Source of the DNA: Cyanophora paradoxa CCMP329
Taxonomy: Eukaryota; Plantae; Glaucophyta
Length of the DNA: 64,000 nucleotides
Assembly (NCBI GenBank): GCA_004431415.1
Contig: QPMI01000059.1
Span: 124,001-188,000 of the forward strand
Reading direction: 5' to 3'
Positions 3,816 to 26,309 of the stretch are shown piece after piece. The stretch's first letter is position 1; each line of letters begins with the position of its first letter. The notes beneath the pieces were generated by a model that worked only from the letters and a program-made list of their open reading frames with translations, was not told where the DNA came from and did not search any database. A program made the translations under genes and the position numbers.

Positions 3816-4476
3816 GCTCGCTGGGGGGTCACCCCCACCAATTGCGCGCAAAAAAAGCCGACCATGTCAATAAGCAGGTCTTACATCTCCCACAATTCTC
3901 AGTGCGAAAATCATAAATTCGCACTGAGCCACACTACATTTTTCAAACATCTAACTCCTCCTTACTGAAACCAATCACGAAACCATTTCATTCTTCATTT
4001 TTCTAATCCCTTACCATTTTCAGTAAGCCCTAAAACCCTCTCTCGATTTCTCAGTAAGGACAGTAAGACCCTTATTTTTACGAAATGTTCCCGATCGTTT
4101 CCAGACTGTTTACAGTTACCCAAATTGAAAAATCAAGGTGACCCCACCGATAGCCTTAATCCGGATGGATCAAATACGAAATCAAGGTGACCCCCACCGA
4201 TAGAGTACGATAATCGACAAAGTACGACGATAGAACACGATTAATCGATTGAGTTCGCAAGTTTATGCTGCCGAAAATGCCCACCTGCACAAACTTGCGA
4301 CTTCAATCGAAATGTACTTCAATCGAAATGTACTTCAATCGAAATGTACTTCAATCGAAATGTACTTCAATCGAAATGTACGAATCGAAATGTACGATTA
4401 GCATATTTACGACAAAGTACGACGATAGACCACGTTAAAATACACTCGCGCCCCGCCCACTATGCAAGATACATGC
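3816..4476 (+). repeat. Left terminal inverted repeat (661 bp)
   Basis: Reverse complement of 25648-26309, from GCTCGCTGGGGGGTCACCCCC to CAAGATACATGC. The only difference noticed is a C4/C5 homopolymer near 4142. Confidence 0.97.
4301..4396 (+). repeat. 16-bp tandem repeat CTTCAATCGAAATGTA x5 plus one degenerate copy inside the TIR (mirrored at 25728-25823)
   Basis: Read directly from the sequence. No spacers. Confidence 0.95.
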
Positions 4477-4526
4477 AAACTACATGCGAGATACATATAT
4501 AAATTGTTTTTCTCTTCCTATAATAA

Positions 4527-5336
4527 ATGAAGACTCACTTTTACCATAAATATACCGGCAACAAGTATAATGAAATGGATACGATCTATCCATATATCGA
4601 TTTAGAAGGAATTAATAAAGTTATAGAACCGTTTTGTGGTTCAGGTGCTTGTAGTTTCTATCTTTGGGAAAAGCATAAAGACCGGTTTGATTATTATATG
4701 AATGATAACGACGAAACCCATACCCTTTTTTTGAATACAATGAAAGACCCAGACAATAAAGTTAAACTCTTAGAGAGTCTTAAACAGTTCGAAGCAGTAA
4801 GCAATATAGAAGAGCATAAAGAAGTCTATAAGAAGTTTCTACAACATGATCGTAAAGATGCAATGGATTACTTAGCTCACCATTTCTATCTTCTTAAAAA
4901 CAGCGTTTTAAATGTTAAAACCCTCCGTGATTTCAAAAAACGAAACGTGAAGGTGAGTCCATATACAACTCTTAAAAAGAAGATACCTTACGATGATTTT
5001 ATTAAAGGAGCCAGCCTATCCCATGGGGATTTTCGCGATATTGTAGCCAAATATAGAGATGATGAAGCGGCTTTTATATTTCTCGATCCTCCATACGTAA
5101 ACAGCAATAATGACTTTTACGAAAATGTAGAATTCGATTTAGAAACCTTCTTTTTGGATTTGGAAGACCTATTTAAGACAGCGAAATGCAAGGTTATGAT
5201 GGTTGTAAATGATGCTCTTTTAATGAAACTCCTATTTAAACCCTATATTCGCCATACGTATGGCAAAGTGTATGGTATAACAAAACGAAAAAGGAACCAT
5301 ATCATAATGACTAACTATGAACTTGGTGAAAAATAA
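4527..5336 (+). CDS. Dam/D12-class N6-adenine DNA methyltransferase
   Basis: KYTGNK, VIEPFCGSGA (SAM-binding motif I), YYMNDND, FIFLDPPY (catalytic motif IV). Confidence 0.9.
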   Translation: MKTHFYHKYTGNKYNEMDTIYPYIDLEGINKVIEPFCGSGACSFYLWEKHKDRFDYYMNDNDETHTLFLNTMKDPDNKVKLLESLKQFEAVSNIEEHKEVYKKFLQHDRKDAMDYLAHHFYLLKNSVLNVKTLRDFKKRNVKVSPYTTLKKKIPYDDFIKGASLSHGDFRDIVAKYRDDEAAFIFLDPPYVNSNNDFYENVEFDLETFFLDLEDLFKTAKCKVMMVVNDALLMKLLFKPYIRHTYGKVYGITKRKRNHIIMTNYELGEK

Positions 5337-5570
5337 CGATTAAGTCATGTATATATTTCGTATATATGTCCGAACCTCCGTGTGTGTGATCCCGCACAAC
5401 TTTGATTTTTTTGTTTTTTTGTTTTTTTTCTCATATGGCGACATATACATATATATACCGGCGTCACCGACATATTCGGGGTCATCATATCGGGGCGATT
5501 CCGAAAACATATAGCATGCCACAAAGTAGTAATTAATGTTTTTGTTGTGGTATTCGACCAATCACAAGCC

Positions 5571-5660
5571 ACTAGAAAGGGGGAATACCGATTTACTAGA
5601 AAGGTCTAGAAAGGGGGGCTACCGGTTTACTAGAAAGGTCTAGAAAGGGGGGATACCTAA
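5571..5660. repeat. Short imperfect tandem repeats (CTAGAAAGG / GGGGG..TACC) in a non-coding spacer
   Basis: CTAGAAAGG occurs 5 times. A T-rich tract (~5400-5430) and an A-rich tract (~5710-5760) flank it. Confidence 0.8.
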
Positions 5661-5910
5661 AAACTGACAGCTGTTAACAGGTGTCACATGCAAAAAAACC
5701 CAGAGTTCGAACAAAAACTAAAAACAAACAAAATCAAAAAACCAAAAAAACAAAAAGCCGAAAACCGCCATACAAACCGTCAAACCCCTGTATCTCTTCA
5801 CCAACTCATCGCCATTCAAAAATGAAAATAGCGCCGTGACCGTCTTGATGAGACCAGCACGCACATGTAGATATCATATGGTCATTAAAATATTTGTCAA
5901 ATAATTAATA

Positions 5911-6348
5911 ATGGATTCCCGATACCGCGGCTACCACGTTATGCTCGACTATATAACCGACCCGTTCACCGAGTCCCCGGAGGCATGCGCCGAGTGGATC
6001 ACAGCGAACCTATCGCAATATATAACAGATCGCAATATGCGCATCGTGCACCAGCACACATGCATTTTCGATGGCTCTATTTCCCCTCCCGGTTTCGCGA
6101 TCGGCTTCTTATTAGATGAGTCGCATGCGACAGCTCACTCTTATAGCGACCAGGGGCTATTAGCGATCGATATCTTTACCTGCGGCTCAAATGCCGAAGC
6201 AAAGACGATGGGAATAGCACAGGACATTAACGATCTCATACAAGAAAGGCTGAAAGTGCGAAAGTGGGACTTATCTTCCCTTTTAGATACTCGATGTAGT
6301 CACTCTTTCCTTGGAACTTGTGAATCGGTGTATAAATCAGCACAGTAG
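5911..6348 (+). CDS. speD: SpeD-like AdoMetDC proenzyme (3' end possibly rearranged)
   Basis: GYHVMLDY..IFDGSISPPGFAIGFLLDESHATAHSYSDQGLLAIDIFTCG; clear homologue of 2783-3199. Its 3' end overlaps the convergent helicase ORF by 113 bp. Confidence 0.88.
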   Translation: MDSRYRGYHVMLDYITDPFTESPEACAEWITANLSQYITDRNMRIVHQHTCIFDGSISPPGFAIGFLLDESHATAHSYSDQGLLAIDIFTCGSNAEAKTMGIAQDINDLIQERLKVRKWDLSSLLDTRCSHSFLGTCESVYKSAQ

Positions 6349-7396
6349 ACAGATCGCGGTTACGAGTGAGCGCGGTATAGAACCATTCGCGAGTGGTATA
6401 GCGGAACGTAGCCTCACAAATGACAATGCCCGAATCAAGTGTGAGACCTTGCGTTGAATGACCTGTTCCTGCATAAGGGAGAGAAAAATGTTCTAACATC
6501 GCGCACGGAACCTCAAACGTGACACCATCGAAAACGTCCGTTAATGTGACCATTTGCTTTGTGATTTTGGTGATTCGATAGGTGTAATTCGTGTATGCGT
6601 TTATAGACTCGCCCTCAGACCGCGAAATGCGTAGATACTTGCGGCAAACGACTTCCAAACCCTTGTAGAATTTGATGCCATTGACCTCTACGGTTGGGAT
6701 ATTTACTTTGCGTCTATCGTGCATCAGTTTGTTGTAGGCTAAGGTCATTTCGTTTCTGTAAGCGATGCCAAAGTAGCCGTCGGGAATAGCGCTTAGATCA
6801 TTAATTGTCGGCAACCCGTATTTCGAGATAATCTGTGCGGCTTCCAGTCCGTTCTCGAAGAGATCCTCTTTAATCGCCCGAATTAATTCACGGTCTGTCT
6901 CCTTCTTGTGCCGCTTGTTATTGCGTAGACTCAGAACGTTAGGGAACATGCTCTGCACAGCGCGCTTATAGTAGCCCTTGCGATCAGAAACCGAGAGCTC
7001 GTCATTAATTGGTTCGTTCTGATAGGTATCGCCATTAGCCAAATATTTGATATCCGGATAGCGATCGATAAACGACTTGATCTTAGCGAGATCTTTTACG
7101 GAATACGCAAATATCTCGTCGAACATAATGTGGCTGAACTCAGATACGAACGCCCTCTGGTCTTTTTCGCTCATAGCCTCTTCGTAGGTCTGATCATTTG
7201 AGACACGGATCCCGAGAACATTATACAAAGTACGAACGGTAATATTCTCGATTCCGCGGACTTTGAGAGAGTCCCTTAGCTCTGCGCACTGTTTGTTATA
7301 GGGGCAAATAACTAAGCAATTTGACTTTTGAGATGCGAAACAGTTAATACCGAGTGTCGACTTTCCACTTCCGGGCATGTCAGCAAGGACAAGCAT
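6236..7396 (-). CDS. SF1B (Pif1/RecD-like) helicase domain, probably the frameshifted C-terminus of the PolB-like gene
   Basis: ADMPGSGKS (Walker A), IMFDEIF (Walker B), GDTYQNEPI (III), LRNNKR (IV), YAGTGHSTQGLTL (V), FYTALTR (VI). The frame stays open upstream to ~7461. Confidence 0.88.
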   Translation of the reverse strand: MLVLADMPGSGKSTLGINCFASQKSNCLVICPYNKQCAELRDSLKVRGIENITVRTLYNVLGIRVSNDQTYEEAMSEKDQRAFVSEFSHIMFDEIFAYSVKDLAKIKSFIDRYPDIKYLANGDTYQNEPINDELSVSDRKGYYKRAVQSMFPNVLSLRNNKRHKKETDRELIRAIKEDLFENGLEAAQIISKYGLPTINDLSAIPDGYFGIAYRNEMTLAYNKLMHDRRKVNIPTVEVNGIKFYKGLEVVCRKYLRISRSEGESINAYTNYTYRITKITKQMVTLTDVFDGVTFEVPCAMLEHFSLPYAGTGHSTQGLTLDSGIVICEATFRYTTREWFYTALTRNRDLSTVLIYTPIHKFQGKSDYIEYLKGKISPTFALSAFLV

Positions 7397-10338
7397 ACGA
7401 TTATGGAGCTTCGCAACCCAATTAAAGCACTCCGGATTAAATTCGTCCTCAGCGAGAACCGGTTAATGAGTGTCTCGGGATCCTGAAATTCGAGAGTTAC
7501 ACCCCGTGGTGGGCGGAGTGCATTCTCAGGGCATCTTTTCCCGGGAATATAGCTGAATTTGCCCATGTTCTCAAACGCATTTCGGTCGAACTCTTTCTTA
7601 CTTGTCCATGAACCTTCGATATAAAGACAGTCCGTTCTGATCCCGGCAACCTTGTGCCCGCGTGCTGTCAGGCGCTTGTATTGCGCAAACATATTAGCGC
7701 GGTTACGATCGTAAATATGAAAGTGGATAGGAAGGAATCCGTTAACGAGCTCGCGGTGGGAGCTGATCTTAACGAAATAGATGTGACCTTCGAATTCGCT
7801 AAGAGTTTTGACACGTTTCGAATTCTTAGGATTGAAAGTAAACACCTCTACTGTTCCTCCGCATTCTTGGGCGAACCTCTCAGCCTCGGCACGGTTGTAG
7901 AACATTTTCGTGGATGTTTGCGAGTCTTGGAATTTGCCGAGCATTCCGATCTCTTTCACTAAAATGTGTTTCTTGTCCGTGGTTTGAATGTCGCTTGACA
8001 GCACTTTCTTCATCTCAGCGATCGACATATTGGGCACCAAATGCGAAGGCTCCGCGACCGCGATAATCTCTATCTTGTCCTTTACGTCCGCCCAGTGCAT
8101 GGAGAGAGTGTAGCCTGTCATGAAATTATAACAGCGACCACTCACGGAAAATGCGCGATCCAGAATAATTTCGATTCCATCAATCTTGCGAGACATGGCG
8201 GCATCATAATCTACATCCTCATCGTCGGCGAAAGTCGCTTGCTCTCTCTCAAACGCAACGACACGCACGTAGTAGATCGCGTATTCGAGAATATCGCTTC
8301 CCGCTTTAAAGGGAACGAAGTCATCAAACACATTGTATTTCGGAAGATATTGCATGCCTTTCAGTATCGAAGGGTAGCACTTCGCCATATCGACAGCTGT
8401 GTAGGTAGCTTTCGGGTTCGGCTTATAGAAAAAGCCGCTTAGTGCGGATCGCTTGTAGTGCGTGAGAATTTCGCGCATGTTCGGGCTGTAATGTGAGATA
8501 TTCGTCGCATTTAGAAGCGACTCGCGGAAACCCTTCCCGATTTCACAGACCTTATTATAATACTCCTCTGTTTCGAAATCTTGCTCAATAAAGTGGTCTG
8601 TTGTGCGCGGATCTTTGATAGAGAACATGGAGCCATTAGCTTTGAATGTGATGCTGTCGATCTGTTTCGATGGTGTAAGCTTCACAGCGGGCTCATATCG
8701 CATTTTCAGGAACGTAAATAGAAGCCCTTCCAGACCTTCGCGCCCAGTATAAAGAATGCGAATGAAACTGCGCTCGTCGGGCGATAGTTTTAATTGCGTG
8801 ATCTTTAACAGATCCTTGGATGTGTGCGCGAAGATATCGTGAGTAAGACACGTCGGAATTTTATAGAGTGCTAACGAAGAGGTCGACTTAGGAACATGAT
8901 TATCGAGCTCTTCGACCTCCATCTTTGCCATGCGCATTTCGAGCGACTTGATGTTATCGTTGAATATATAGATGTGCTTGTTGTGAATCATAAAGTGAAT
9001 ATTGCGTGGAAAGATGTTTTTGTTAATTGATTCCGCCGCGAATTTGTATATTAACTTTCCGTCGACATCAAAGACGCGGAAGCCTGTCTGGATTCTCTTA
9101 CAGAATTTCTCAATTTGGCGGAGCGTGAGAGCCAGAGAGTCGCCAGGTGTGCGTTCGCGACCGTGAAAGAATTTATAGAGACCGTCGTAGGACATAGTTA
9201 AGTCAGTATATCGCGGTTTTGGCGCCTCCTGACACTTCTTAATGGACGCTCCCCATGTGGAGATGATCATATCATAGCCGCAAGCGTTAGATGTCGATGA
9301 TTTGGGAAGCTCAATAACATCTTCGAACTCAGACGCGTTTGGATTTAATGTATAGTCTGTGAATTTGCTCATAATCGCGGTGCATCGCATACTGTCCATT
9401 AGCTCCTCATCCAGGAACTCATAGCGATTGCCAGGTATAGCGCCGGCTCCATCGTCCTCGACACCTTCGTCCCCATCGATCGCGACCTCATGAACAGTTA
9501 TAAAGGCATCATCGATACTGCCGCCAAAATCATCGAAACCTTTGCGTAGTTTTTTCTGTTCCTCGGTTGGTGGTGTCTTAAAGAAGAACATCTCGTATGC
9601 TTGTCCGAAAGTTCCCAGACGAATCTTCAATTCATCGTAGTTTTCGAGTAAATCGAAGATTGATTCGCTCTCATGCCAATCATGACGAACTTGACCCGGT
9701 CTAATTAGAATTTGAGACATTCTATCCATTTTCGCCAGAGCAAAGCTTCGCAACACACTCACCGAAACTGTCTCTCTTATATTGCGGTAGGTGACAAAGG
9801 TTCTGTCTGGTATATTTAATTCGGGAATTCCGGGAATAACAATTACCTCCGACGACCGAGCACCGGATCCAGGTCCCCATAGCTTGAACGTAATTGTTGC
9901 GAGAGTTTCCGGATCGTATGCGGCGATTGGGTCGAGAATAGTGCGTTTGATCGCATCCTCTACCGCTTTTAGTTTACCTCTCTGCTGCTTTGCTTCGAGC
10001 TTCGCTTCTTTCGCTCGTTTCTGTTCTTGCTTGCGATCGAAGCGCTGTAAACGCTTAGCCTCTTGTTCTTTTTGCTTTTGCTTTTCTATATTAACTTGGG
10101 TGCGAGCGGCGCGCTTTTCTTTCCGCTCTGCCCTGCGGAAAACGCGGGGATTAATGATGCCATTCAGAGTATCCCGAATGTCTATCAGCGTTTGGAGCTT
10201 GGGCTTCCGATTCATTGTGTTGTGCATCGCCCAATGCGCCTGTTCTTCGGTTAGCAAATCCTGACTCAATCCCTGCATAATGTATCCGATAATTTCATCC
10301 CGAACATTGTTAGCGATTCTGTTGGTTGCGCGCGGCAT
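7312..10338 (-). CDS. Divergent protein-primed family B DNA polymerase-like polyprotein (basic N-terminus, putative vOTU protease region, polymerase palm)
   Basis: AVDMAKCYPSIL (motif A), KHILVKEIGMLGK (degenerate motif B), AGIRTDCLYI (motif C). SNACGY..HNKHIY is a candidate Cys/His dyad. No clear exonuclease motifs. Confidence 0.75.
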   Translation of the reverse strand: MPRATNRIANNVRDEIIGYIMQGLSQDLLTEEQAHWAMHNTMNRKPKLQTLIDIRDTLNGIINPRVFRRAERKEKRAARTQVNIEKQKQKEQEAKRLQRFDRKQEQKRAKEAKLEAKQQRGKLKAVEDAIKRTILDPIAAYDPETLATITFKLWGPGSGARSSEVIVIPGIPELNIPDRTFVTYRNIRETVSVSVLRSFALAKMDRMSQILIRPGQVRHDWHESESIFDLLENYDELKIRLGTFGQAYEMFFFKTPPTEEQKKLRKGFDDFGGSIDDAFITVHEVAIDGDEGVEDDGAGAIPGNRYEFLDEELMDSMRCTAIMSKFTDYTLNPNASEFEDVIELPKSSTSNACGYDMIISTWGASIKKCQEAPKPRYTDLTMSYDGLYKFFHGRERTPGDSLALTLRQIEKFCKRIQTGFRVFDVDGKLIYKFAAESINKNIFPRNIHFMIHNKHIYIFNDNIKSLEMRMAKMEVEELDNHVPKSTSSLALYKIPTCLTHDIFAHTSKDLLKITQLKLSPDERSFIRILYTGREGLEGLLFTFLKMRYEPAVKLTPSKQIDSITFKANGSMFSIKDPRTTDHFIEQDFETEEYYNKVCEIGKGFRESLLNATNISHYSPNMREILTHYKRSALSGFFYKPNPKATYTAVDMAKCYPSILKGMQYLPKYNVFDDFVPFKAGSDILEYAIYYVRVVAFEREQATFADDEDVDYDAAMSRKIDGIEIILDRAFSVSGRCYNFMTGYTLSMHWADVKDKIEIIAVAEPSHLVPNMSIAEMKKVLSSDIQTTDKKHILVKEIGMLGKFQDSQTSTKMFYNRAEAERFAQECGGTVEVFTFNPKNSKRVKTLSEFEGHIYFVKISSHRELVNGFLPIHFHIYDRNRANMFAQYKRLTARGHKVAGIRTDCLYIEGSWTSKKEFDRNAFENMGKFSYIPGKRCPENALRPPRGVTLEFQDPETLINRFSLRTNLIRSALIGLRSSIIVCLSLLTCPEVESRHSVLTVSHLKSQIA

Positions 10339-10357
10339 CTCTATTAGTTCTTTTAAA

Positions 10358-10373
10358 ATAACCGGAGAAAATA
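10358..10373 (-). promoter_or_regulatory. Candidate promoter motif TATTTTCTCCGGTTAT upstream of the PolB-like gene
   Basis: An identical 16-mer lies at 10926-10941 upstream of the AT-hook gene. Confidence 0.55.
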
Positions 10374-10506
10374 ATTTCGGCGCAATCTACCAAATTCTCC
10401 TTTTCATACCCTTGTCGCCAATTCTTTAAGTGCTTTTTGACCGATACGGGGAATAAAAAGGGAGGTAAAAAATTAATCATTTTTTGCATCGTGCGGATAC
10501 TTTCCG

Positions 10507-10920
10507 CTACGGATTTTTCGCGTTCTCGACAACATGCTTTCGGGGTCTCCCAGCGGGCTTTTGCGGCTGGGGCTTTACCGGCGGATTCAGCTTTCGTTCC
10601 GCTCTCTTTCTGCGTTGGTATTCCCGTGCCTTTTCCCTGATTTTCTCCCGATACTCTTCATCGTCTTGGTATCGCTGCTGTTTACGAATTGCGATCTTTT
10701 GTAGCTGCTCCGGGGTAAATACGGTCGCTTCCCCTGCGGCTAATCGCTCTTGCTTTTGTCTCTGATGCTTGTTTCGCTGCCGCTCTGCATCTTTCTCGCG
10801 TTTTAGTCTTAATCTCTCCGCTTTCTCCTCTTCTGTGATCACCTTCTTCGGTCGCCCTGGTCTGCGCTTTTCTTGCTGTGCCGCCATTGCCTCTTGGTTT
10901 GAAATCTTGGGTTTCGCCAT
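10507..10920 (-). CDS. Small basic AT-hook/coiled-coil DNA-binding protein
   Basis: RRPGRPKK and AGRPRK AT-hook motifs flank K/R/E/Q-rich helices. Confidence 0.7.
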   Translation of the reverse strand: MAKPKISNQEAMAAQQEKRRPGRPKKVITEEEKAERLRLKREKDAERQRNKHQRQKQERLAAGEATVFTPEQLQKIAIRKQQRYQDDEEYREKIREKAREYQRRKRAERKLNPPVKPQPQKPAGRPRKHVVENAKNP

Positions 10921-10925
10921 TTACT

Positions 10926-10941
10926 ATAACCGGAGAAAATA
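10926..10941 (-). promoter_or_regulatory. Second copy of the candidate promoter motif
   Basis: ATAACCGGAGAAAATA on the + strand, 5 bp from the ATG at 10920. Confidence 0.55.
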
Positions 10942-11044
10942 GTTTTTTGTCACTCTGTATTATTTCCCTTGCCCTTATATACCTTTTACCGAAACCTTCA
11001 ATTTTTGCCCTCGGATCGATAGGAGCACCACCGAAATTCACCGC

Positions 11045-11461
11045 TCAATAACCGTTCCAGACGGTTCTTTCTTGTTGCTGAGGATATACATAAGGGTTTG
11101 TTAAGCTGTCATCGTCGCCTAATGCCATTTGATCCAATCTATACATCGGATAAGGTGAATCAGCGCGCAAATGCCCTTCCACAAATTCGGGACATGATCG
11201 CCTTCTAATATGCTCTACATGCACATCCTCTATCTGAGAGGTCTCGATATTGGAACTCATAGCCGCGGGCACAGGCGAGGGCGATCGAGATCGTGGGTGG
11301 TTGTGATTGTCGCTGTGGTTAGAATATACAGAAAGGCGCCTACCTCCATTATCCTCGCCATCTGATATTTCGATTTCTACGGTTGTGTCACAGCATGGAC
11401 TGTGGCAATTAGACACGACGTGAAGCTGAAACATCTCAATGCATTGTGTGATGAAATTCAT
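11045..11461 (-). CDS. Hypothetical protein
   Basis: Co-oriented ORF filling the gap between neighbours. ATG at 11461 follows an AT-rich tract. No motif recognised. Confidence 0.45.
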   Translation of the reverse strand: MNFITQCIEMFQLHVVSNCHSPCCDTTVEIEISDGEDNGGRRLSVYSNHSDNHNHPRSRSPSPVPAAMSSNIETSQIEDVHVEHIRRRSCPEFVEGHLRADSPYPMYRLDQMALGDDDSLTNPYVYPQQQERTVWNGY

Positions 11462-11665
11462 CGACCCTACAAATGGGCAACGTATTAAATATGTGAGAAA
11501 ATAAAAGGGAATGAGGCTATTGCTTGCTCGTGTGTTCCCATACGAGTTGGTCGACCTTATAATGCTGTTTATGGAGCCGACATGCCCGTTTTGCAATGGC
11601 ATTCATATTAAGACCCGCTCTAAATACGGGCGGATTCAGCTTTGCCTTGCGGATATTCACAGCCA

Positions 11666-12349
11666 TTAGCGGATATGGCGTTTACCACCAAGCATTGCGG
11701 CATAATTTACGGGTGCAGTCGGCACTATATGTGCATATTGCGGGGCGACCGATTGCTGACGAGTCACGGCTTGCGCATCTGTCTTTTCCTCCTTTTTAAT
11801 CTCCTCTACGTCGACTTTTTGCTTTAATCCGAGTTTCGAGATCTCTTTCTTTACGAGCCCCTTTAATTTCTTGCGTTCGTTATAATCTTGCATCCATTTC
11901 TCGTAGTTTGACACTTTCATTTCAAGATCTCGCACTTTCTCTTCGAAGCTCATGACAACGTCGACTGGAACAGTGTGTTTTTGATAGGATCCGCGCTTTT
12001 TAAGCTCGGTTTCGGCGGCTTTCGGGACGTCTTGTGTCTTGTGCTGGCTTGCAACAACTTGCGCTTTGAGTACTTTGTCGGTTGCTTCATCAACAGAGCC
12101 GCCTCCAATCTGTGGTTTTACAGTAGCTAAATCCTCCATTTGGCGTTTACCGCTATCTTGGTTTCCCTTGTCCGCGGTGGCACTCGCAATAATTGCCTCT
12201 TGCTTGGCAACCTCCTCTGGCGAAGTGTCTACAAGATATTCGGGCATTTCGAGACCGCCACCCGACGTTAATCCAGACTCTTCAAGCCCGCGATTAGGAT
12301 TACCAGAAGCGACCGTTTGAATGGTTTGAGGCTTCTTTCGGTAGACCAT
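11666..12349 (-). CDS. Hypothetical coiled-coil protein (possible virion core protein)
   Basis: 227-aa ORF starting 2 bp after the ATPase stop; K/E-rich helices. Confidence 0.65.
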   Translation of the reverse strand: MVYRKKPQTIQTVASGNPNRGLEESGLTSGGGLEMPEYLVDTSPEEVAKQEAIIASATADKGNQDSGKRQMEDLATVKPQIGGGSVDEATDKVLKAQVVASQHKTQDVPKAAETELKKRGSYQKHTVPVDVVMSFEEKVRDLEMKVSNYEKWMQDYNERKKLKGLVKKEISKLGLKQKVDVEEIKKEEKTDAQAVTRQQSVAPQYAHIVPTAPVNYAAMLGGKRHIR

Positions 12350-15563: not shown

Positions 15564-15579
15564 CTTACTATAATAGATT

Positions 15580-17968: not shown

Positions 17969-20900
17969 ATGTCGTTCCTGAATCCGAGACCCGATGCACG
18001 AGTAATTAATTCGACCACGCAGATAGAGGACACTGACCAGGTAAACACCGAAATTCGCGGGTCTATCAGAATAAATTACAATGCAGACCGCGAAGATCCA
18101 GTCAGTGGAACACCGAGCAGACCCGCAGCTTTGCAGTTAATGAACGTCGAGAAGGGGGATCACAAGCTTGCAATCGACTTTTTACTTGATGACAACGAGC
18201 GAAACAGAGTTGCCAGCATCCAGGCGACTCGTCAGTTACCGAAAACGGTGCGATATAATCGGAGGAACATCCCAAAAGCTTTCGATAGAGGTCGCTTAAA
18301 CTTCTTCATTCAAGATGAGAGCGGTTTCCAAAATGCAGCTATGAGAATCGTGGATAATAGCACGCTTATAGCGGGAGTATCCACGCGGAAAACAAAGGTA
18401 GAGGTCGTCCATGATCTCTCAGCAGGTAATTTGACGACGAGCAACATTGCAGCAAGCAACATCACCACGGACACTCTGAACGTAAACTCATTTAATTCAG
18501 AGTCTTTCTTCGCCACCAATGTCGCCACATGCAATCTAAATCTTGATTCCTTTATTATTCAGAAGAGCGACACGGTTCCCCAAATTACAGAGGGCGTTTT
18601 CACATTAGACTCCGCGAAACCGACCTTAGAAATTGTCGAAAATGGGAACGTTGTGGATATAATTGGCGCCAATGCTCCGAATGTGAGATCCTTAGCACTT
18701 GATAAAACGACTATATCATTTGCAGAAGAAATTCCGGCATTTACCACAGAGAAACAGGCACTGAGAACAGATCATGTTTACATTACCAGAGACAATATAA
18801 ACGATCTTTTGGGCAAGGACATTGTGAAGGCGTTTTTGGAGTTCGAGAGGAACAAGAACACCAAAGATTCGAGCCAGGATGGAACCCTCACGACCCACAC
18901 AACCGAGATCGCGGCTTTGCAGTCCGAAATTAATGCACTGTTTGCAGCAGATGGAGCGCTTGCAATTACCTTAGCCCATATTCTATCGAAAAGGAACATT
19001 TACCCCGCGACTGATAACACATACCGAGTTGGTTTATCGAATCTGAGATGGTCAGAGATGCATGGAGTTTCGATGGTTGCCACCGACACTACCAGCTCGA
19101 ATATAATCCTTCCATTAAATCACTCACTCCGACCCAATCAAATACCCACTGATGAGAGAGCTCTGATCAGCTACAACGACTTTAATAGCAACCTTTCCCG
19201 CTCAGTTTCGCGAACTGAGACCTACACTGTCGAGGGATACCCGCAGAAATTCGCAGGTCTTGAAGTCTATGTGGTGTATGCTGATAGCCCGACCTACACA
19301 TTTACATGGGGTCAATTGGGTGTCACAGGTTTCGAGATTTTACCTACGGTTACCTTGGTCGATCATACAGTTTACTATAATCAAATTACTTTCACTGATG
19401 AATATAACAAGGCATATGTCCATAATATCACCTCCACAGGGTTTCAGGTTTCGTTCCAATATGTTGGAACAAATACTCTCATTATCCGAAACAACTCGCT
19501 AAACAGCATAGCTAATGTGAGCTTCACTCTCACTATCAATTATGTCACCCCTATATTTGATAGCAAGCCCAGAGTAAAGGTTTACCGAGATTTACAGGTA
19601 AATAATGTCGTCCCCTTCCCAGCTTCCAATATACAGATAGGCGAACCCACAAACCCCTTCAAACGAGAATATCTTAAAGAGCTCTATATAACAAAGTCCG
19701 ATTTCGCAGATGCTGTCGCTTTGGTAAACTCCCCGACACCCAGTATATCATACCACAATATCAAAGCGTTTACCCCTATGACTCAGACAGGTAGCAGGTC
19801 GTTCCCGAGCTCAGAATTATTAAGTATGGTAAATGGCTACTATTATAGATATACTCCGTCAGAGTCGATTAGTATACCTATTACCTTCACATCGACATAT
19901 AATGCCCCACCAATTGTTACCATAGTAGATACCAATCGATATTTCGCCCAGCCCACAGGAGGCATAACACCAGCACCCAAATATACTACCGTTTTTCGAG
20001 CAGAGAATGTCACCACCACAGGCTTTAATCTTGTAGCCGATCCTACGATTCATACTTATATCAATGGCTACCCAGTCGGTGTCTACTTCTATACATATAA
20101 TGCCACCACAGCGAAATTCGAATATCCCCCATACACAGTAGGGTGGTCAGCTGTGGGTCAGACTCCCCAGTATGATGATACTGATAGATTAAAAATAAAG
20201 TATCCACTCGATGTGACCGACCTATATACTACAAGGATCAATGGGCAGAATTTTGTGTTTAATGGAACCAATGCGACTGTGATCGATAACAGAGTCACAA
20301 ATAATTACTTTTTCGATTCTCGATATATTAATACTTGCAACATTGTCATACAAAACACGTTTGAAAATCGCAGTAAGACCTTAACAGTCACCTTGCCCAC
20401 TCACTCGAATGTCTCAGATGGATTTCACTATTATCTTTTCAATCGTAATTACACCTCATATATTCCATATCCTTCTGAGACTGTCAACATGAGCTATCCC
20501 AGAGTCACCCTAACATCGACCAATGCTGACTTCTTTGGATCCACGGACTTTATGACCTTCTTTGCTTTCACATCGTCCACAGATGGTCTCTTAGTTTATT
20601 ACACTTTCAGGTATGATGCTGTTTGGACTCAGCTTGACAGCCACCCAAATACAGATGTAATTGAAGTGGGCGATAAGAAATATATTAAAACCGCTTCCCC
20701 ATGGGTGTGCACTGTCCGGCTCGATGATAGATACACTCCCAACCTAAATAACATTGGAATGCACTCGACATGTAATATTTATGTGCAAGGTGCAATTTCG
20801 GCTACCAAATATTTCGAGGGTGGGAACTGTGATGCAGCCCATAGGTTGCTATCGCGAAATGGGCTCTTTGAGTCATTCAGTGGGACGGCTCTACCGCCCT

Positions 20901-21619
20901 TTATCAGGGACACGGTCTATGATACCACATGCAATATTTGGGTGTGCCGATCTGTGAGCAATCCGCCTGTAACACAGGAATTATACAGTTACCTCGCGAA
21001 TAAGTATGGGGCAATCACAGGGTCTTCAACAGGAAATCCAGCAACAGCTCCTATCGTGTTTGCAAATGCATACACAGCGCCAACCTCATTGGCAGGGTCG
21101 ACAGAACCGCCACCAAACGATCCCAATCCGAACCAGCCTAACCCAGATCCCGATTCAAAAGATCCCCCTACAACTGATCCAGATCCAAACACGACACCTA
21201 ATAATCCCACTAATCCTACAAATCCAGTCGGAGCACCCGGAATGGATCCAGGAACGTTAGTGCTTCTCATTCTCTTGCCGATTCTCGGTGCTCTTGGGCT
21301 TGTGCTTGCATACAAATTCCGAGCTTTGTGTTGTGCATGCATAGACAGAACCATTGCAGGAGCAGGAAATAAATACTCAACACCTGAGCTGAATGTGACC
21401 CAAACAGCCGAAGGAGATGTGGGGTTAGAGGTGAGGTCAGCCGAGGGGCATGGTCTTAGTGTTGTGAGAACTGATCAACCACCAGCAAGTAGGGCAGCAC
21501 CCAAAAAATCACGAGCAGAACGAATGGCTGAATCAATAATGAATGAAAATGCAGACTTTATGGCGGAAATTGCACAACGAGAGGGCAGAACATACGAGCT
21601 TCTCCCAATGCGACCTTAA
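17969..21619 (+). CDS. Large fibre-like protein with C-terminal P/N/D/T-rich linker and single transmembrane helix
   Basis: Likely ATG 17969 (1216 aa). Short coiled coil, repeated SNI/CNI motifs, beta modules (ITFTSTYNAPPIVT..NVTTTGF..VGWSAVG), then LVLLILLPILGALGLVLAY-KFR..CCAC. Confidence 0.7.
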   Translation: MSFLNPRPDARVINSTTQIEDTDQVNTEIRGSIRINYNADREDPVSGTPSRPAALQLMNVEKGDHKLAIDFLLDDNERNRVASIQATRQLPKTVRYNRRNIPKAFDRGRLNFFIQDESGFQNAAMRIVDNSTLIAGVSTRKTKVEVVHDLSAGNLTTSNIAASNITTDTLNVNSFNSESFFATNVATCNLNLDSFIIQKSDTVPQITEGVFTLDSAKPTLEIVENGNVVDIIGANAPNVRSLALDKTTISFAEEIPAFTTEKQALRTDHVYITRDNINDLLGKDIVKAFLEFERNKNTKDSSQDGTLTTHTTEIAALQSEINALFAADGALAITLAHILSKRNIYPATDNTYRVGLSNLRWSEMHGVSMVATDTTSSNIILPLNHSLRPNQIPTDERALISYNDFNSNLSRSVSRTETYTVEGYPQKFAGLEVYVVYADSPTYTFTWGQLGVTGFEILPTVTLVDHTVYYNQITFTDEYNKAYVHNITSTGFQVSFQYVGTNTLIIRNNSLNSIANVSFTLTINYVTPIFDSKPRVKVYRDLQVNNVVPFPASNIQIGEPTNPFKREYLKELYITKSDFADAVALVNSPTPSISYHNIKAFTPMTQTGSRSFPSSELLSMVNGYYYRYTPSESISIPITFTSTYNAPPIVTIVDTNRYFAQPTGGITPAPKYTTVFRAENVTTTGFNLVADPTIHTYINGYPVGVYFYTYNATTAKFEYPPYTVGWSAVGQTPQYDDTDRLKIKYPLDVTDLYTTRINGQNFVFNGTNATVIDNRVTNNYFFDSRYINTCNIVIQNTFENRSKTLTVTLPTHSNVSDGFHYYLFNRNYTSYIPYPSETVNMSYPRVTLTSTNADFFGSTDFMTFFAFTSSTDGLLVYYTFRYDAVWTQLDSHPNTDVIEVGDKKYIKTASPWVCTVRLDDRYTPNLNNIGMHSTCNIYVQGAISATKYFEGGNCDAAHRLLSRNGLFESFSGTALPPFIRDTVYDTTCNIWVCRSVSNPPVTQELYSYLANKYGAITGSSTGNPATAPIVFANAYTAPTSLAGSTEPPPNDPNPNQPNPDPDSKDPPTTDPDPNTTPNNPTNPTNPVGAPGMDPGTLVLLILLPILGALGLVLAYKFRALCCACIDRTIAGAGNKYSTPELNVTQTAEGDVGLEVRSAEGHGLSVVRTDQPPASRAAPKKSRAERMAESIMNENADFMAEIAQREGRTYELLPMRP

Positions 21620-21648
21620 TTTTTGTAGAATGCCATAATAGAGAAATA

Positions 21649-23187
21649 ATGACGGAACCCATAGTAGAAACGACAGTAAAGAATGCTGTATTGGATAATC
21701 AATTTTATATAACCCATGCCAATATACCCAGTGAATCCAATGACCTAATTGTTAATCTAAAAGGCTATGTGATGGGAGCTATGGCTTCTAACCTATGGAA
21801 TGACATTTTCGGTTACGAGTTTGGTCACATCTATGACATTGCAAATGGGATCGGCTATGTGGATGCGATGGCAGGCACAGCCTTTCGAAATCTAAATTGC
21901 AACTGTGTGGGTGGGTGGATGTTTCAGATCTGTTCAAATGTCGATCCTACTATTGATCCCGCCACGATTACCTTTGATTGCAATCTGTTTGCCCCCAAAA
22001 CGATTTTCTCCATCACTTGCAATCTCGTTAATTCGGATGTGCCCATTGTGGCACCTCTCATGGGTGCATCCAACATGTACATTCGAAGATACCCTGTTGT
22101 TCACACAGGTGGAGAGTATCAGATCCCAGATGATCCAGCTATAATGCCCATTAAAATTGACCTCCCTTCGGATTATGTAGGGAGGGGGGAACTGAAAACC
22201 GTTTCATTTACAGGAGACTATAATGATCTCATTAATAAACCCACCGCAGCAAATCTACACCCTGTTGCATTTTCGGGGAGTTTCCTCGACCTTAATAATA
22301 GATCACACACCCACACAAAGGCAGAAATCACAGATTTTGCACACACTCACACCAAATCACAAATTACAGATTTTGCACACTTCCACACAAGAGCAGATAT
22401 CACAAATTTCGCTCACACTCATGTTAAATCAGAGATATTAGATCTCGGAAATGTTGCATATGTGGGTCACACCCATACCAAGGCAGAGATTACAGATCTT
22501 GGAAATGTTGCATATGTTGGTCACACCCACACAAAGGCAGAGATTACAGATTTTGCACACACTCATGATTGGAATACAGATATCTATAACAAACCTGCAA
22601 TTTTCTCAGGAAACTACAATGATTTGACCAATAGACCAACTCTTGATCCTTTCACAGCCACCACAATCAGAGCCAACAACACAATGTATGTAGGATCAGG
22701 TCAGATTGTAGAACCAGCAGGACCTATGTTTGAAGAAACATGGTTCTTCCACAATTCGCAGAATTACTTTGATAAAACCTTACTTGTTCGTGGAAATGCC
22801 TATGCAAGAAATTTCTATGCTATGAACCCCTCAAATAATGCGACCATCAGTCGATGTATTACAGAGGCAGATCTTTCCAGTCAACTCAATGCATATTTTA
22901 ATGGGAAAATCCAAGCAGGAACGTATGTTTACACTACTCCTTATCTTTGGGCAAATCCTGACCATAGGTTTAACCTCACTATTAATTTCAACAGCAGCTT
23001 TGCTAACCCTCCTATTGTAACAACTGGTATACAACACAATGAGACAGCCTACTACTATCGAATGTATGTTAGGCTTAAACAAGTTTACAGTAGCTATTTC
23101 ACTTGTGAGCTTGACATAGTTCCATTAAGTTCTTTTGACAGACCAGGATTTCCAGTTACAATTCATTACATTGCTGTCGCAATTTAA
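21649..23187 (+). CDS. Phage-tail-fibre-like protein with His-rich repeats
   Basis: HTHTKAEITDF-type repeats (22306-22569), three F[ST]GxYNDLxN[KR]P-type repeats, and a C-terminal module similar to ORF 1-978. Confidence 0.75.
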   Translation: MTEPIVETTVKNAVLDNQFYITHANIPSESNDLIVNLKGYVMGAMASNLWNDIFGYEFGHIYDIANGIGYVDAMAGTAFRNLNCNCVGGWMFQICSNVDPTIDPATITFDCNLFAPKTIFSITCNLVNSDVPIVAPLMGASNMYIRRYPVVHTGGEYQIPDDPAIMPIKIDLPSDYVGRGELKTVSFTGDYNDLINKPTAANLHPVAFSGSFLDLNNRSHTHTKAEITDFAHTHTKSQITDFAHFHTRADITNFAHTHVKSEILDLGNVAYVGHTHTKAEITDLGNVAYVGHTHTKAEITDFAHTHDWNTDIYNKPAIFSGNYNDLTNRPTLDPFTATTIRANNTMYVGSGQIVEPAGPMFEETWFFHNSQNYFDKTLLVRGNAYARNFYAMNPSNNATISRCITEADLSSQLNAYFNGKIQAGTYVYTTPYLWANPDHRFNLTINFNSSFANPPIVTTGIQHNETAYYYRMYVRLKQVYSSYFTCELDIVPLSSFDRPGFPVTIHYIAVAI

Positions 23188-23206
23188 CTATTTCGTAATT
23201 ATAAAG

Positions 23207-24277
23207 ATGACCTCCCTTTTAGAGATTCCAAACTATGAACTTGCAGCCAAATCACTCCACAGCACCTCTCATGAAGTAGTCGACTCCACACCCGGTTTTA
23301 TTTGCACTGAAACTACAAGTAATACCTCTTTCACAGAGAACAGTATACTGAGGGTCAAAGAAATTCGATGTGATCGAAATGGAGGCAAGATTAGAACCAC
23401 AGGCATTATAATCTCGAATAAAAACCAAGTTCAAGCAGGTCAGGTAGTCCCCAATTCAGCAATATATGATAATGTGGGTGGATTCACCACAGCACAGATA
23501 GTTACTTTTGGTAATACAAGCAATAATTCTGCTCTTGTGGTGAAAAGTGGAGGAGCCTACATTGGTGATGGAGCAAATGTAGCAGGAACTCTGACAGCAA
23601 ATCAATTGACTGTGAGTGGGACATGTTCATTTGCAGGATTGATGACCTTTAATGGTGGGCTTTCAGGGAGTATTCAGTATGGAACTCTCACACTTACAAC
23701 AAGAATAAATACACCTGAGATTGACAACATGAGTGACACAGTCATGAATTACAAGAGGAATGGGGATACCATTCTTTCTCTTCAAAAAACTATTCAGACA
23801 GATAACACAACTGTTCAACATCTCACACTTCCGACAAGCAAATATCTCAAATTAAGTAGCCATCCTCGTTTCTTTGCAACAAAACAGCAACCAAATGGGT
23901 CAATAACTGCAACAATTTCCTCAATAAATATATATCCAACAACAGGAGTCATAGTGAACCAAGGAAATCATTTCGATCCTGCGACAGGGCTTTTTACTGC
24001 CCCTGTTACAGGAAACTATCTTGTCACATTTAGTGGATCCTGTTATACGGCTGGAAGACCAGGTATTATAACAACATTTTTACAGAAAAACGGAAGCTCA
24101 TCTGGAATTGAAGTTAATAATAATTATCCATCTGTGTATGCAAACAATGGATTGGAAATAATCGTTGACCTTCAAGCTAATGATTCCATCAAAATATCAT
24201 ATAGTGTCAGTGGTGGAGCTTCTTCATATTATAATATCAGATGGTTCTTTGGATGTATGCTTCTCAGCTCTTCATAA
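23207..24277 (+). CDS. Fibre protein: conserved N-terminal anchor plus C-terminal C1q/TNF-like head
   Basis: RVKEIRCDRNGGKIRTT..SGGAYIGDG anchor; HPRFFA..VNQGNHFDPATGLFTAPVTGNYLVTF..IVDLQANDSI..FFGCML is a C1q pattern. Confidence 0.8.
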   Translation: MTSLLEIPNYELAAKSLHSTSHEVVDSTPGFICTETTSNTSFTENSILRVKEIRCDRNGGKIRTTGIIISNKNQVQAGQVVPNSAIYDNVGGFTTAQIVTFGNTSNNSALVVKSGGAYIGDGANVAGTLTANQLTVSGTCSFAGLMTFNGGLSGSIQYGTLTLTTRINTPEIDNMSDTVMNYKRNGDTILSLQKTIQTDNTTVQHLTLPTSKYLKLSSHPRFFATKQQPNGSITATISSINIYPTTGVIVNQGNHFDPATGLFTAPVTGNYLVTFSGSCYTAGRPGIITTFLQKNGSSSGIEVNNNYPSVYANNGLEIIVDLQANDSIKISYSVSGGASSYYNIRWFFGCMLLSSS

Positions 24278-24299
24278 TATTATCCATATAATATAAAGT

Positions 24300-25319
24300 A
24301 TGACCACTCAAATAGCTGTTCCTGTGTTCTGTTATGCCGCCCCCAAAATACATCAACTCAACCACACAGTAACAGATGCAACCCCTGGTTTTATTTGCAC
24401 TGAAACAACAGGTGCCGATTCGTTTTCTCAGAATTCAGTGATAAGATGCAAAGAAATTCGATGTGATCGCAATGGGGGCAAGGTGAGAACCACAGGTTTA
24501 ATTGTCTCCAATAAGAACCAAGTTCAATCAGGTCAGATAGTCTCAGATTCCACAATTTATGAGGATGTTGGAGGGTTCACCACACCAAAGATTGTAACCT
24601 TTGACAATACAATTAATAACTCTGCTCTTGTTGTGAGAAGTGGAGGAGCTTACATTGGAGATGGGGCGAGAGTTGATGGAACCCTAACAGCAAATCAGGT
24701 AAGTATTACAGGAACAAGCACCTTTACAGGATTGGTAACAGCAAATGCTGGTATTTCACTACCAATTGCCTCACAATCCATAATCACAGCAATGAACAAG
24801 GTTGTCACACCAGAAATCGATACAGGAGTCAATGTAGATCTTCTTCTGAAACGAAATAGTAACACTGTTGCTACTCTGGAAGCGAATAGTTTGACAATTA
24901 ATACAGGGTGTTATCTCAAAACATCACATCCACGATTTTCAGTTCAACTCGGCTACAACCACACTGCTACAAGTTCTGCTGTTCTTATAAACTGGGCAAC
25001 AGTTCGAGTAAACAATACCAACTCATTCAGCATATCAACTGGAAGGTTCACAGCACCTGTTGCGGGACACTATCGATTTTCAGTTTTCACTTCTTCAACC
25101 ACAACTTCTGCAATTGAATTATTTGTAAGGGTTAATGATGCTGACCCTGGGGGATTGAGCATTTCCCAAGTTCACAATCTGTCGACAACAAATAAAGCAC
25201 TTTGTTTCTCTTGCATTCTCAATCTTGCCCAAAACGAATATGTGACACTTGTTACAAATTCAGTCGGTTCCTATGCAAGTGAAACAGCCTTCTCAGGTGA
25301 ATTAATAAGCATCGTATAA
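24300..25319 (+). CDS. Fibre protein paralogue with C1q-like head
   Basis: N-terminal ~150 aa highly similar to 23207-24277; HPRFSV..NNTNSFSISTGRFTAPVAGHYRF..LNLAQNEYV..FSGELI. Confidence 0.8.
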   Translation: MTTQIAVPVFCYAAPKIHQLNHTVTDATPGFICTETTGADSFSQNSVIRCKEIRCDRNGGKVRTTGLIVSNKNQVQSGQIVSDSTIYEDVGGFTTPKIVTFDNTINNSALVVRSGGAYIGDGARVDGTLTANQVSITGTSTFTGLVTANAGISLPIASQSIITAMNKVVTPEIDTGVNVDLLLKRNSNTVATLEANSLTINTGCYLKTSHPRFSVQLGYNHTATSSAVLINWATVRVNNTNSFSISTGRFTAPVAGHYRFSVFTSSTTTSAIELFVRVNDADPGGLSISQVHNLSTTNKALCFSCILNLAQNEYVTLVTNSVGSYASETAFSGELISIV

Positions 25320-25341
25320 TTTTCTTATGGTAGTTTAGGAA

Positions 25342-25605
25342 ATGTCGAATATTTACCAAGTGGTTCTATCTGAAATCGAAAAGTTGGGAATGGAATATTG
25401 TGCTGCCTCTGTTCAGGATTGGATCGATAATGCTGCCCACAACAGAGCAAGGATTGCAATTGAAGAAATTGTTCAGAAAGAAATCCATTCTTGCATCTCA
25501 GGTGGAGTTCAAATACCTACCTCAAAGGAAGCGATTGTGTTACAGGCATTCCAAAGGGGAACTGTGAAGAAAGCAATTGAATATAATACAGTTGCTGAGG
25601 AATGA
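25342..25605 (+). CDS. Small fibre-associated protein (possible assembly chaperone)
   Basis: MEY..SVQDWIDNAAHNRARIAIEEIV resembles, from recall, small proteins that follow C1q fibre genes in marine tailed phages. Confidence 0.6.
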   Translation: MSNIYQVVLSEIEKLGMEYCAASVQDWIDNAAHNRARIAIEEIVQKEIHSCISGGVQIPTSKEAIVLQAFQRGTVKKAIEYNTVAEE

Positions 25606-25647
25606 AGTCTAAATTAATTGGTTTTTCATATAGCATGCATAAGAAAG

Positions 25648-26309
25648 GCATGTATCTTGCATAGTGGGCGGGGCGCGAGTGTATTTTAACGTGGTCTATC
25701 GTCGTACTTTGTCGTAAATATGCTAATCGTACATTTCGATTCGTACATTTCGATTGAAGTACATTTCGATTGAAGTACATTTCGATTGAAGTACATTTCG
25801 ATTGAAGTACATTTCGATTGAAGTCGCAAGTTTGTGCAGGTGGGCATTTTCGGCAGCATAAACTTGCGAACTCAATCGATTAATCGTGTTCTATCGTCGT
25901 ACTTTGTCGATTATCGTACTCTATCGGTGGGGGTCACCTTGATTTCGTATTTGATCCATCCGGATTAAGGCTATCGGTGGGGGTCACCTTGATTTTTCAA
26001 TTTGGGTAACTGTAAACAGTCTGGAAACGATCGGGAACATTTCGTAAAAATAAGGGTCTTACTGTCCTTACTGAGAAATCGAGAGAGGGTTTTAGGGCTT
26101 ACTGAAAATGGTAAGGGATTAGAAAAATGAAGAATGAAATGGTTTCGTGATTGGTTTCAGTAAGGAGGAGTTAGATGTTTGAAAAATGTAGTGTGGCTCA
26201 GTGCGAATTTATGATTTTCGCACTGAGAATTGTGGGAGATGTAAGACCTGCTTATTGACATGGTCGGCTTTTTTTGCGCGCAATTGGTGGGGGTGACCCC
26301 CCAGCGAGC
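25648..26309 (-). repeat. Right terminal inverted repeat (662 bp)
   Basis: Reverse complement of 3816-4476. Confidence 0.97.

What the first reader, a model, noticed from the sequence alone, without database searches (positions are those of the whole stretch)
3816..26309. Young, TIR-bounded polinton-like virus with an unusual gene set and no integrase or TSD
Seen: near-identical 661/662-bp TIRs around a full morphogenetic module and a pPolB-like/SF1 helicase gene. No rve integrase, tyrosine recombinase or Ulp1-type maturation protease motif was found in any ORF. The flanks (..CTGGTATC| and |TATATATT..) show no direct repeat; at most a palindromic GC. Known: Polintons and mavirus-type virophages use rve and leave 5-6 bp TSDs, and many PLVs use tyrosine recombinases. 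Inference: a recent insertion made in trans or by host repair, or one that later lost its integrase. With AdoMetDC, MTase, patatin-discoidin and a membrane-anchored fibre it may represent an undescribed PLV lineage.
Basis: partly seen in the sequence, partly recalled or inferred. Interest (0 to 1): 0.85.

Follow-up and report, generated by a model that had tools for sequence, protein, structure and literature searches.

The report
Defective polinton-like virus in glaucophyte alga
This 22.5-kb integrated DNA virus belongs to an already catalogued, multi-copy polinton-like virus family of what is likely the alga Cyanophora paradoxa; it has no integrase gene, likely because a deletion that cut its replication gene short also removed the integrase, which would make it an ordinary defective copy rather than a new way of integrating.

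Summary
In detail: TIRs of 661/662 bp, a double-jelly-roll capsid gene, an A32 ATPase, a pPolB-SF1 helicase replicase, no integrase, and no direct repeat of 4 bp or more at the TIR ends. The claim of an undescribed lineage does not hold. Capsid proteins about 99% identical are listed for Cyanophora paradoxa by Bellas 2023. Bulzu 2025 tallies 156 glaucophyte elements: rve 85, tyrosine recombinase 0, protease 0, AdoMetDC 66, lipase 89, D12 methylase 10. It also names the PTR-H-lectin fibre and patatin-discoidin fusion. New here: the helicase stops where an HNH-like tail begins in 5 of 5 relatives and abuts the AdoMetDC at 6270-6272, each frame reading into the other. This points to an internal deletion; in one relative an rve gene lies 2 kb past that tail. 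The missing TSD is common even in rve-bearing PLV clusters and may reflect a damaged left end or a mis-join. Sibling copies could not be read, so an integrase-free subfamily is not excluded. The fibre module is CpG-depleted and the core is not, suggesting a mosaic. The scan has notes on other PLVs in this genome, none on this element.

The parts
3816..4476 (+). Left TIR (661 bp); small terminal hairpin and five 16-bp tandem repeats near 4300-4390. The base before it is C, where the right arm implies A.
   Evidence: a contig with single-copy-like depth spans the junction 3318-3845 in 4 of 4 runs
4527..5336 (+). D12-class N6-adenine methyltransferase; an optional cassette
   Evidence: Pfam PF02086 E 6e-16; a joint 4490->5332 that skips it in 3 of 4 runs
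5911..6348 (+). AdoMetDC with the ESH self-cleavage motif; core ends near 6270, last 26 codons read into the antisense of the helicase
   Evidence: PF02675 E 4e-11
6270..6272 (.). Inferred deletion breakpoint: helicase homology ends at 6272 and the AdoMetDC core at 6270; the only overlapping pair among 15 gene gaps (113 bp)
6236..10338 (-). Tlr1-like pPolB-SF1 helicase replicase (vOTU-like Cys/His, palm motifs A and C), split by a frameshift near 7460 and lacking the C-terminal HNH-like tail
   Evidence: single-ORF relatives P0002 (1268 aa) and L002 (1350 aa) match both halves; tail absent in all six frames of the window
10507..10920 (-). 137-aa basic protein with AT-hook-like motifs; likely DNA-binding
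   Evidence: PF02178 E 0.003
11045..12349 (-). Two unassigned low-complexity ORFs (185 and 227 aa)
   Evidence: no significant Pfam or PHROG hit
12352..13218 (-). A32-like packaging ATPase
   Evidence: PF04665 E 1.7e-10
13277..14590 (-). [quoted passage not shown]
   Evidence: model pLDDT 64.7; Z 23.9, rmsd 3.5, 323 aligned to a PBCV-1 capsid chain; about 99% identical to C. paradoxa MCPs in Bellas 2023 Table S2 (compared by eye)
14638..16425 (.). Two head-to-head, likely penton (minor capsid) genes: 14638-15563 minus (frameshifted near 15100) and 15580-16425 plus
   Evidence: 30% identity to each other over about 90 C-terminal aa, E 3e-8; weak DUF5901 hit; fold not tested
16432..17925 (-).
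   Evidence: PF01734 E 7e-22; discoidin not detected; such fusions are reported for glaucophyte PLVs
17969..21619 (+). 1216-aa likely fibre with one strong transmembrane segment at residues 1096-1114; the CpG change-point lies inside it near 19.3 kb
   Evidence: hydropathy 2.74; weak H-lectin hit
21649..25319 (+). CpG-depleted fibre module: PTR-PTR-H-lectin protein (512 aa) and two C1q-tipped proteins (356, 339 aa)
   Evidence: N-terminal ~125 aa shared at 35-41% with fibres of the neighbouring PLV
25342..25605 (+). 87-aa unassigned ORF
   Evidence: no hit above a curated cut-off
25648..26309 (-). Right TIR (662 bp), followed by T, which would give a Polinton-type CT-3' end if that base belongs to the element
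   Evidence: end-motif passage in PMC8097293

Best explanation
This is one copy of a multi-copy polinton-like virus family with a Tlr1-type replicase, likely an internally deleted derivative of a lineage that integrates with an rve integrase. Shown: TIRs, capsid fold, ATPase, a pPolB-SF1 helicase whose homology stops at 6272, and no integrase. Inferred: the intact virus would copy its linear genome from the TIRs with the pPolB-S1H-HNH protein, package it with the A32 ATPase, enter cells with its fibres and lipase, and insert with rve. A deletion ending at 6270-6272 likely removed the HNH-like tail, the AdoMetDC stop and whatever lay between, plausibly the integrase. The TSD is likely absent because the left junction was eroded or the flanks come from two insertions; a chance-level 3-bp TAT repeat is not excluded.
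For: HNH-like tail present in 5 of 5 helicase relatives recovered (P0002, P0010, P0011, L001; L002) and absent from the window in all frames. PLV Tlr1-like helicases carry a C-terminal HNH (PMC5499653; PMC11161782). The two genes abut within 2 bp and read through each other, the only overlap among 15 gaps. In L001 an rve gene lies about 2 kb after the tail on the same strand with no N gap. rve is the only integrase tallied in glaucophyte elements: 85 of 156, tyrosine recombinase 0. PolB replicases correlate strongly with DDE integrases (bioRxiv 2026.10.13.758929), and Tlr1 encodes rve. Rough contig-depth ratios give 8.5-11.8 copies of the methylase, matching 10 D12 methylases in the published tally. 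TSDs are missing from 42-77% of elements in rve-bearing clusters. The junction contig ends so that C3815 is private to this copy, which random flanks would give with p about 0.03-0.18; this weakly suggests a damaged left end.
Against: No sibling copy was read across 6270, so neither the deletion's size nor its content is shown. 71 of 156 glaucophyte elements have no detected rve, though that set may include partial elements. The rve synteny rests on one distant locus (27% identity) in a 66-kb contig that looks mosaic and frameshifted. AdoMetDC homologues aligned only to its middle, so its truncation is inferred from geometry. The tail's HNH identity is weak in Pfam (E 0.13 for 1 of 2 tails) and has no PDB match. 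An rve-made insertion should leave a TSD, so a second event is needed.
Confidence: 0.55

Rival explanations
1. The whole subfamily lacks the HNH tail and the integrase. It keeps its capsid and replicase but is inserted in trans by rve from co-resident PLVs that recognise shared TIR ends.
For: About 10 methylase-bearing copies and about 22-31 copies that skip it, by rough depth. Inner TIR segments are shared with elements that have other outer ends (loose ends at 3897 and 3938). 85 of 156 elements could supply rve and 71 show none. The rest of the coding region is dense (94%) and largely intact.
Against: rve acting in trans should still leave a TSD. The mutual read-through at 6270-6272 looks unpolished by selection. 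No sibling was seen across the junction.
Confidence: 0.22
2. A free, already defective linear genome was captured at a chromosome break by host end-joining repair, which explains both the missing integrase and the missing TSD with one insertion event.
For: No TSD of 4 bp or more. Asymmetry at the terminal base (C against A). It lies 470 bp from a second PLV, in repeat-rich DNA.
Against: Both TIRs are complete to within at most one base, whereas repair capture often trims or scrambles ends (general knowledge). An rve-rich virus population is present in the host.
Confidence: 0.13
3. The two flanks belong to different insertions, joined by a mis-assembly through a 22-kb repeat or by ectopic recombination between copies. 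This explains only the missing TSD and is compatible with the best explanation.
For: The element is multi-copy. The published assembly of this species used about 15-kb inserts (PMC6704402), shorter than the element. The copy has single-base frameshifts, as does a published sibling MCP.
Against: The left junction is real in 4 of 4 runs. Both flanks carry related repeat fragments (69% inverted match), which is weak because that repeat recurs elsewhere in the window.
Confidence: 0.2
4. A highly divergent integrase or tyrosine recombinase is hidden in an unassigned ORF or in the N-terminal part of the replicase, and TATC/TATA is its crossover core.
For: The four bases next to the TIRs match at 3 of 4 positions. 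No profile-profile or fold search was run on the unassigned ORFs.
Against: The unassigned ORFs are 87-227 aa and low in complexity. No Pfam or PHROG hit. Replicase residues 120-480 gave only unnamed clusters in the Atlas. 0 of 156 glaucophyte elements were scored with a tyrosine recombinase.
Confidence: 0.04

Closest known systems
Cyanophora paradoxa endogenous PLVs of Bellas et al. 2023 (PMC10120064; Table S2 genes 37737 and 3321; Table S4: 366 MCP hits in two clusters of 272 and 94) and Bulzu et al. 2025 (PMC12220804, Table S6, 156 elements)
   Same: MCP differs at 1 of the first ~240 aa (gene 37737) and 4 of 308 aa (gene 3321), by eye. AdoMetDC, lipase, D12 methylase, S1H, PTR-H-lectin fibre and no protease are all in the tally or text.
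   Different: This copy has no rve (85 of 156 have one) and a truncated helicase. Per-element TIR and TSD data for glaucophytes were not in the supplement rows I found.
Tlr1 element and PLVs with pPolB-S1H (Tlr1-like helicase) replicases, e.g. PLV-Bnat (PMC5499653, PMC11161782)
   Same: Linear TIR-bounded genome, MCP, ATPase, no maturation protease, vOTU-palm-S1H replicase.
   Different: Tlr1 has rve and a GIY-YIG tail; PLV relatives have an HNH tail. This copy has neither tail nor rve, and its motif B Asn is Val. The MCP has only 6 relatives among 1.84 billion representatives.
Polintons/Mavericks and mavirus-type EMALEs (PMC8097293, PMC8547959)
   Same: TIRs of several hundred bp; possible AG...CT end at the right terminus.
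   Different: No rve, no Ulp1 protease, helicase-fused polymerase, no 5-6 bp TSD. EMALE TSDs themselves range from 1 to 9 bp, mostly 3-5.

Membership tests
Polinton-like virus (broad) | [quoted passage not shown] | tested here: met
   (Z 23.9, rmsd 3.5, 323 aligned)
Polinton-like virus (broad) | A32/FtsK-type packaging ATPase | tested here: met
   PF04665 E 1.7e-10
Polinton-like virus (broad) | [quoted passage not shown] | tested here: inconclusive
   two paralogues next to the MCP, weak DUF5901 hit only; not folded
Polinton-like virus (broad) | 14-40 kb genome with TIRs | tested here: met
   22,494 bp, TIRs 661/662 bp
Polinton-like virus (broad) | No Ulp1 maturation protease | tested here: met
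   no hit; a very divergent protease could be missed
Tlr1-like pPolB-S1H replicase | Palm domain followed by an SF1 helicase | tested here: met
   both halves match single-ORF relatives; motifs A (DMAKCYPS) and C (RTD) present; split by one frameshift in this copy
Tlr1-like pPolB-S1H replicase | vOTU Cys/His before the palm, and motif B | tested here: inconclusive
   Cys and His align in 3 of 3 sequences but no fold was computed; motif B Asn is Val here
Tlr1-like pPolB-S1H replicase | C-terminal homing-endonuclease domain (HNH in PLVs) | tested here: not met
   present in 5 of 5 relatives, absent in all frames of the window
Polintons (Polintoviricetes) | rve integrase | tested here: not met
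   with a positive control
Polintons (Polintoviricetes) | 5-6 bp target-site duplication | tested here: not met
Virophages (mavirus type) | Virophage-type MCP | tested here: inconclusive
   Sputnik Z 13.2 and mavirus Z 12.4 against 23.9 for a giant-virus capsid chain; no phylogeny built
Named PLV groups (GKS1-3, PgVV, TVS, Trimcap) | MCP cluster or clade membership | not testable with these tools
   no reference MCP set held; the two C. paradoxa clusters fall in the 'Iterative HMM searches' block of Bellas Table S4, before the named-group columns
Active virus | Free linear genomes, virions, giant-virus dependence | not testable with these tools
   only assembled contigs were laid

The most novel reading that the evidence does not exclude
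An integrase-free, HNH-less PLV subfamily has spread to about ten or more loci by borrowing rve from co-resident viruses or by host repair, and its genome records a swap in which a CpG-rich core picked up a CpG-depleted fibre module from long-silenced, hairpin-ended resident proviruses. Methylated proviruses would then act as a reservoir of entry modules.
Probability: 0.2. Interest if true: 0.55.

Novelty: new member of a known kind. Interest (0 to 1): 0.27.

Why it matters
As a defective copy of a catalogued family it matters little. Two details could be useful. First, it gives a base-level way to tell 'lost its integrase' from 'never had one': the replicase's HNH-like tail marks the break. 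Second, CpG content splits the element into a core (observed/expected 1.1-1.5) and a fibre module (0.3-0.4) in a host that methylates CpG in repeats and viral genes, so base composition may date module exchange among proviruses. If siblings prove integrase-free at many loci, this would be a tractable case of PLV integration in trans in a culturable alga.

Tried and rejected
No whole genome was held, so siblings, the empty site and other TIR flanks could not be read. Contigs were laid only on 1-5600; the frameshifts, the 6270 junction and the right junction were not covered, and the loose-end and contig tables were cut (249 and 1579 rows not shown). No RNA holder was listed; this is no evidence on expression. 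Searches of viral contigs with the MCP, ATPase, P0002 and the TIR end found nothing; the 7-sequence MCP alignment had no searchable stretch. 0 of 10 window proteins are in the cluster collection. The first MCP model from 2 sequences was useless (pLDDT 31). No Rfam match in 6000-28000. Earlier-finding look-ups by place near, by TIR, by MCP and by words gave nothing. Paper searches for 'polinton' with 'adenosylmethionine decarboxylase' and for 'polinton-like' with 'CpG depletion' found 0 papers; the first is misleading, since AdoMet_dc is in Bulzu's Table S6. Rejected: nesting inside the left neighbour (about 470 bp separate its hairpin end from the TIR); the 3-bp TAT as evidence of a TSD (13% by chance); an MCP or ATPase tree (no reference set, 6 relatives only).
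Full report
Observation. The element runs from 3816 to 26309. Its TIRs are exact inverted copies except for one C in a C-run. GC is 36-49% against about 50-72% beyond 27 kb. No perfect direct repeat of 4 bp or more exists at any boundary shifted up to 6 bases; a 3-bp TAT appears if the left end is moved out by one base, and such a 3-mer occurs in 13% of random flank pairs. Of 196 frames of 45 aa or more, 165 were scanned with Pfam, 25 more with PHROGs only and 6 short ones with neither. None is an rve, tyrosine recombinase or Ulp1 protease. The same Pfam scan did find rve in a related locus.

Identity. The 437-aa ORF folds as a double jelly roll (pLDDT 64.7; Z 23.9 to a PBCV-1 capsid chain, 13.2 to Sputnik; 130 viral matches at E 0.001 or better). 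It has only 6 relatives among 1.84 billion representatives. One of them, P0003 at 37% identity, is a Cyanophora paradoxa EukProt protein. Bellas 2023 (PMC10120064; passages and supplement rows seen, file cut when stored) lists C. paradoxa MCPs that differ from this one at 1 of about 240 and 4 of 308 residues by eye, and counts 366 MCP hits in two clusters. The host is therefore very likely C. paradoxa, as earlier AI notes said. That paper's gene maps of five loci are figures I could not read and may show this family.

Gene set. Bulzu 2025 (PMC12220804; passages, section 13 part 1 and Table S6 rows seen) tallies 156 glaucophyte elements: rve 85, tyrosine recombinase 0, protease 0, S1H 34, HNH_3 40, D12 methylase 10, lipase 89, AdoMetDC 66. 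Its text names a PTR-PTR-H-lectin fibre in a C. paradoxa PLV and discoidin fused to patatin. The 'unusual' genes are thus the family's usual genes. I could not confirm the discoidin domain itself.

Copy number and cassettes. Contigs from 4 runs were laid on 1-5600. One contig, 3318-3845, spans the left junction in all four at the lowest depth listed. Against it the methylase contigs stand at 8.5-11.8 times, and a joint that skips the methylase (4490 to 5332) at 22-31 times in 3 of 4 runs. These ratios are rough, but the first agrees with the 10 methylases in the published tally. The methylase is an optional cassette in a larger family.

The replicase and the break. ORFs 7312-10338 and 6236-7462 are two halves of one gene: both match single ORFs in P0002 (1268 aa) and L002 (1350 aa). 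This is the Tlr1-like pPolB-S1H replicase (PMC5499653 and PMC11161782, passages). Motifs A and C and the vOTU-like Cys and His align; motif B has Val for Asn. All 5 helicase relatives recovered end in a conserved Cys-rich tail of about 90 aa, at the place where those papers put an HNH domain; Pfam supports HNH only weakly (E 0.13 for 1 of 2). The window's helicase stops at the first residues of that tail, and a profile of the tail finds nothing in any frame (best E 3.9). Homology ends at 6272, the AdoMetDC core ends at 6270, and each frame runs on into the other's antisense for a 113-bp overlap, the only overlap among 15 gene gaps. I infer a deletion there. In L001 an rve gene follows the tail by about 2 kb, and PolB replicases correlate with DDE integrases (bioRxiv 10.64898/2026.10.13.758929, passages; its supplements are closed). 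That the lost DNA held the integrase is plausible, not shown: no sibling was read across the junction.

The missing TSD. In rve-bearing cryptophyte clusters TSDs flank 58% (C2, C3) and 23% (C4) of elements, and EMALE TSDs range from 1 to 9 bp (PMC8547959, passages). The junction contig ends at 3845, so C3815 is private to this copy among roughly 8-13 similar ends; random flanks would do that with p about 0.03-0.18. The right end is followed by T, which would fit the AG...CT ends of Mavericks (PMC8097293, passages). This weakly suggests a damaged left end. A mis-join is also possible: the published assembly of this species used about 15-kb inserts (PMC6704402, passages). Repair capture and insertion in trans remain open.

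Surroundings and mosaic. Bases 1-3347 are the end of a second PLV with fibre genes, its own optional AdoMetDC (joint 2730 to 3199 in 3 of 4 runs) and a long terminal hairpin. About 470 bp separate the two. CpG observed/expected is 1.14-1.48 over 4-19 kb, 0.32-0.39 over 22-25 kb with TpG/CpA excess, and 0.38-0.66 in the neighbour; the best change-point is near 19.3 kb, inside the 1216-aa fibre. The two C1q fibres share about 125 N-terminal residues with the neighbour's fibres at 35-41%. C. paradoxa methylates 32% of CpG, mainly in repeats and viral genes (PMC12344493, passages). I infer that the fibre module came by recombination from a lineage long exposed to methylation. A search for 'polinton-like' with 'CpG depletion' found no paper; mosaicism as such is reported.

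Other papers seen as passages only: PMC12721341, PMC7805220, bioRxiv 10.64898/2026.07.28.741278 (it reports TIR-bearing fragments lacking core genes in another protist).

Verdict. A real, young PLV copy of a catalogued family, most likely defective by internal deletion (0.55). The integrase-free subfamily reading (about 0.2) is the one worth testing and needs only the genome assembly. Interest 0.27.

Noticed in passing
window 17969-25605 against 4527-17925: CpG observed/expected falls from 1.1-1.5 in the core to 0.3-0.4 in the distal fibre genes, with TpG/CpA excess; change-point near 19.3 kb inside the 1216-aa fibre.
   Followed up: partly
window 1-3347: End of a second, CpG-depleted PLV: three fibre-like genes, an AdoMetDC that some copies skip, and a 73-base palindrome (3274-3346) folding into a long hairpin; about 12-14 copies by rough depth.
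   Followed up: partly
window 21255-21311 (residues 1096-1114 of the 1216-aa ORF): One strong transmembrane segment after a Pro/Asn-rich linker, followed by a CxCxC-like cluster and a 100-aa tail, at the C-terminus of a likely fibre.
   Followed up: no
window 5572-5648: Five copies of the 9-mer CTAGAAAGG in the non-coding stretch after the methylase; not found in the TIRs.
   Followed up: no
window 3825-3839, 4137-4198, 4300-4395: The terminal motif GGTGACCCC/ACCCCCACC recurs twice inside each TIR, and five 16-bp tandem repeats follow; contigs show copies that skip or replace parts of this region.
   Followed up: no
window 7950-7977: Polymerase motif B has Val where four relatives have Asn; no alternative frame restores it.
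   Followed up: partly
window 26989-27215, 28162-28261, 61610-61834, 3567-3734: A palindrome-rich host repeat, 91% identical between 27 kb and 61.7 kb, with an older 62-69% copy in the left flank; contigs show fold-back joints at 3639-3734.
   Followed up: partly
window 31500-37600, 38790-39300, 49400-53700: Intron-rich host genes that by eye resemble a CSC1/OSCA-type channel, a glycine-cleavage H protein and a sensor histidine kinase (labels recalled, not tested).
   Followed up: no
L001 6657-14052: A methylase-like ORF, a frameshifted pPolB-S1H replicase with the Cys-rich tail, small ORFs and an rve gene in one run, a layout close to that expected for an intact relative.
   Followed up: partly
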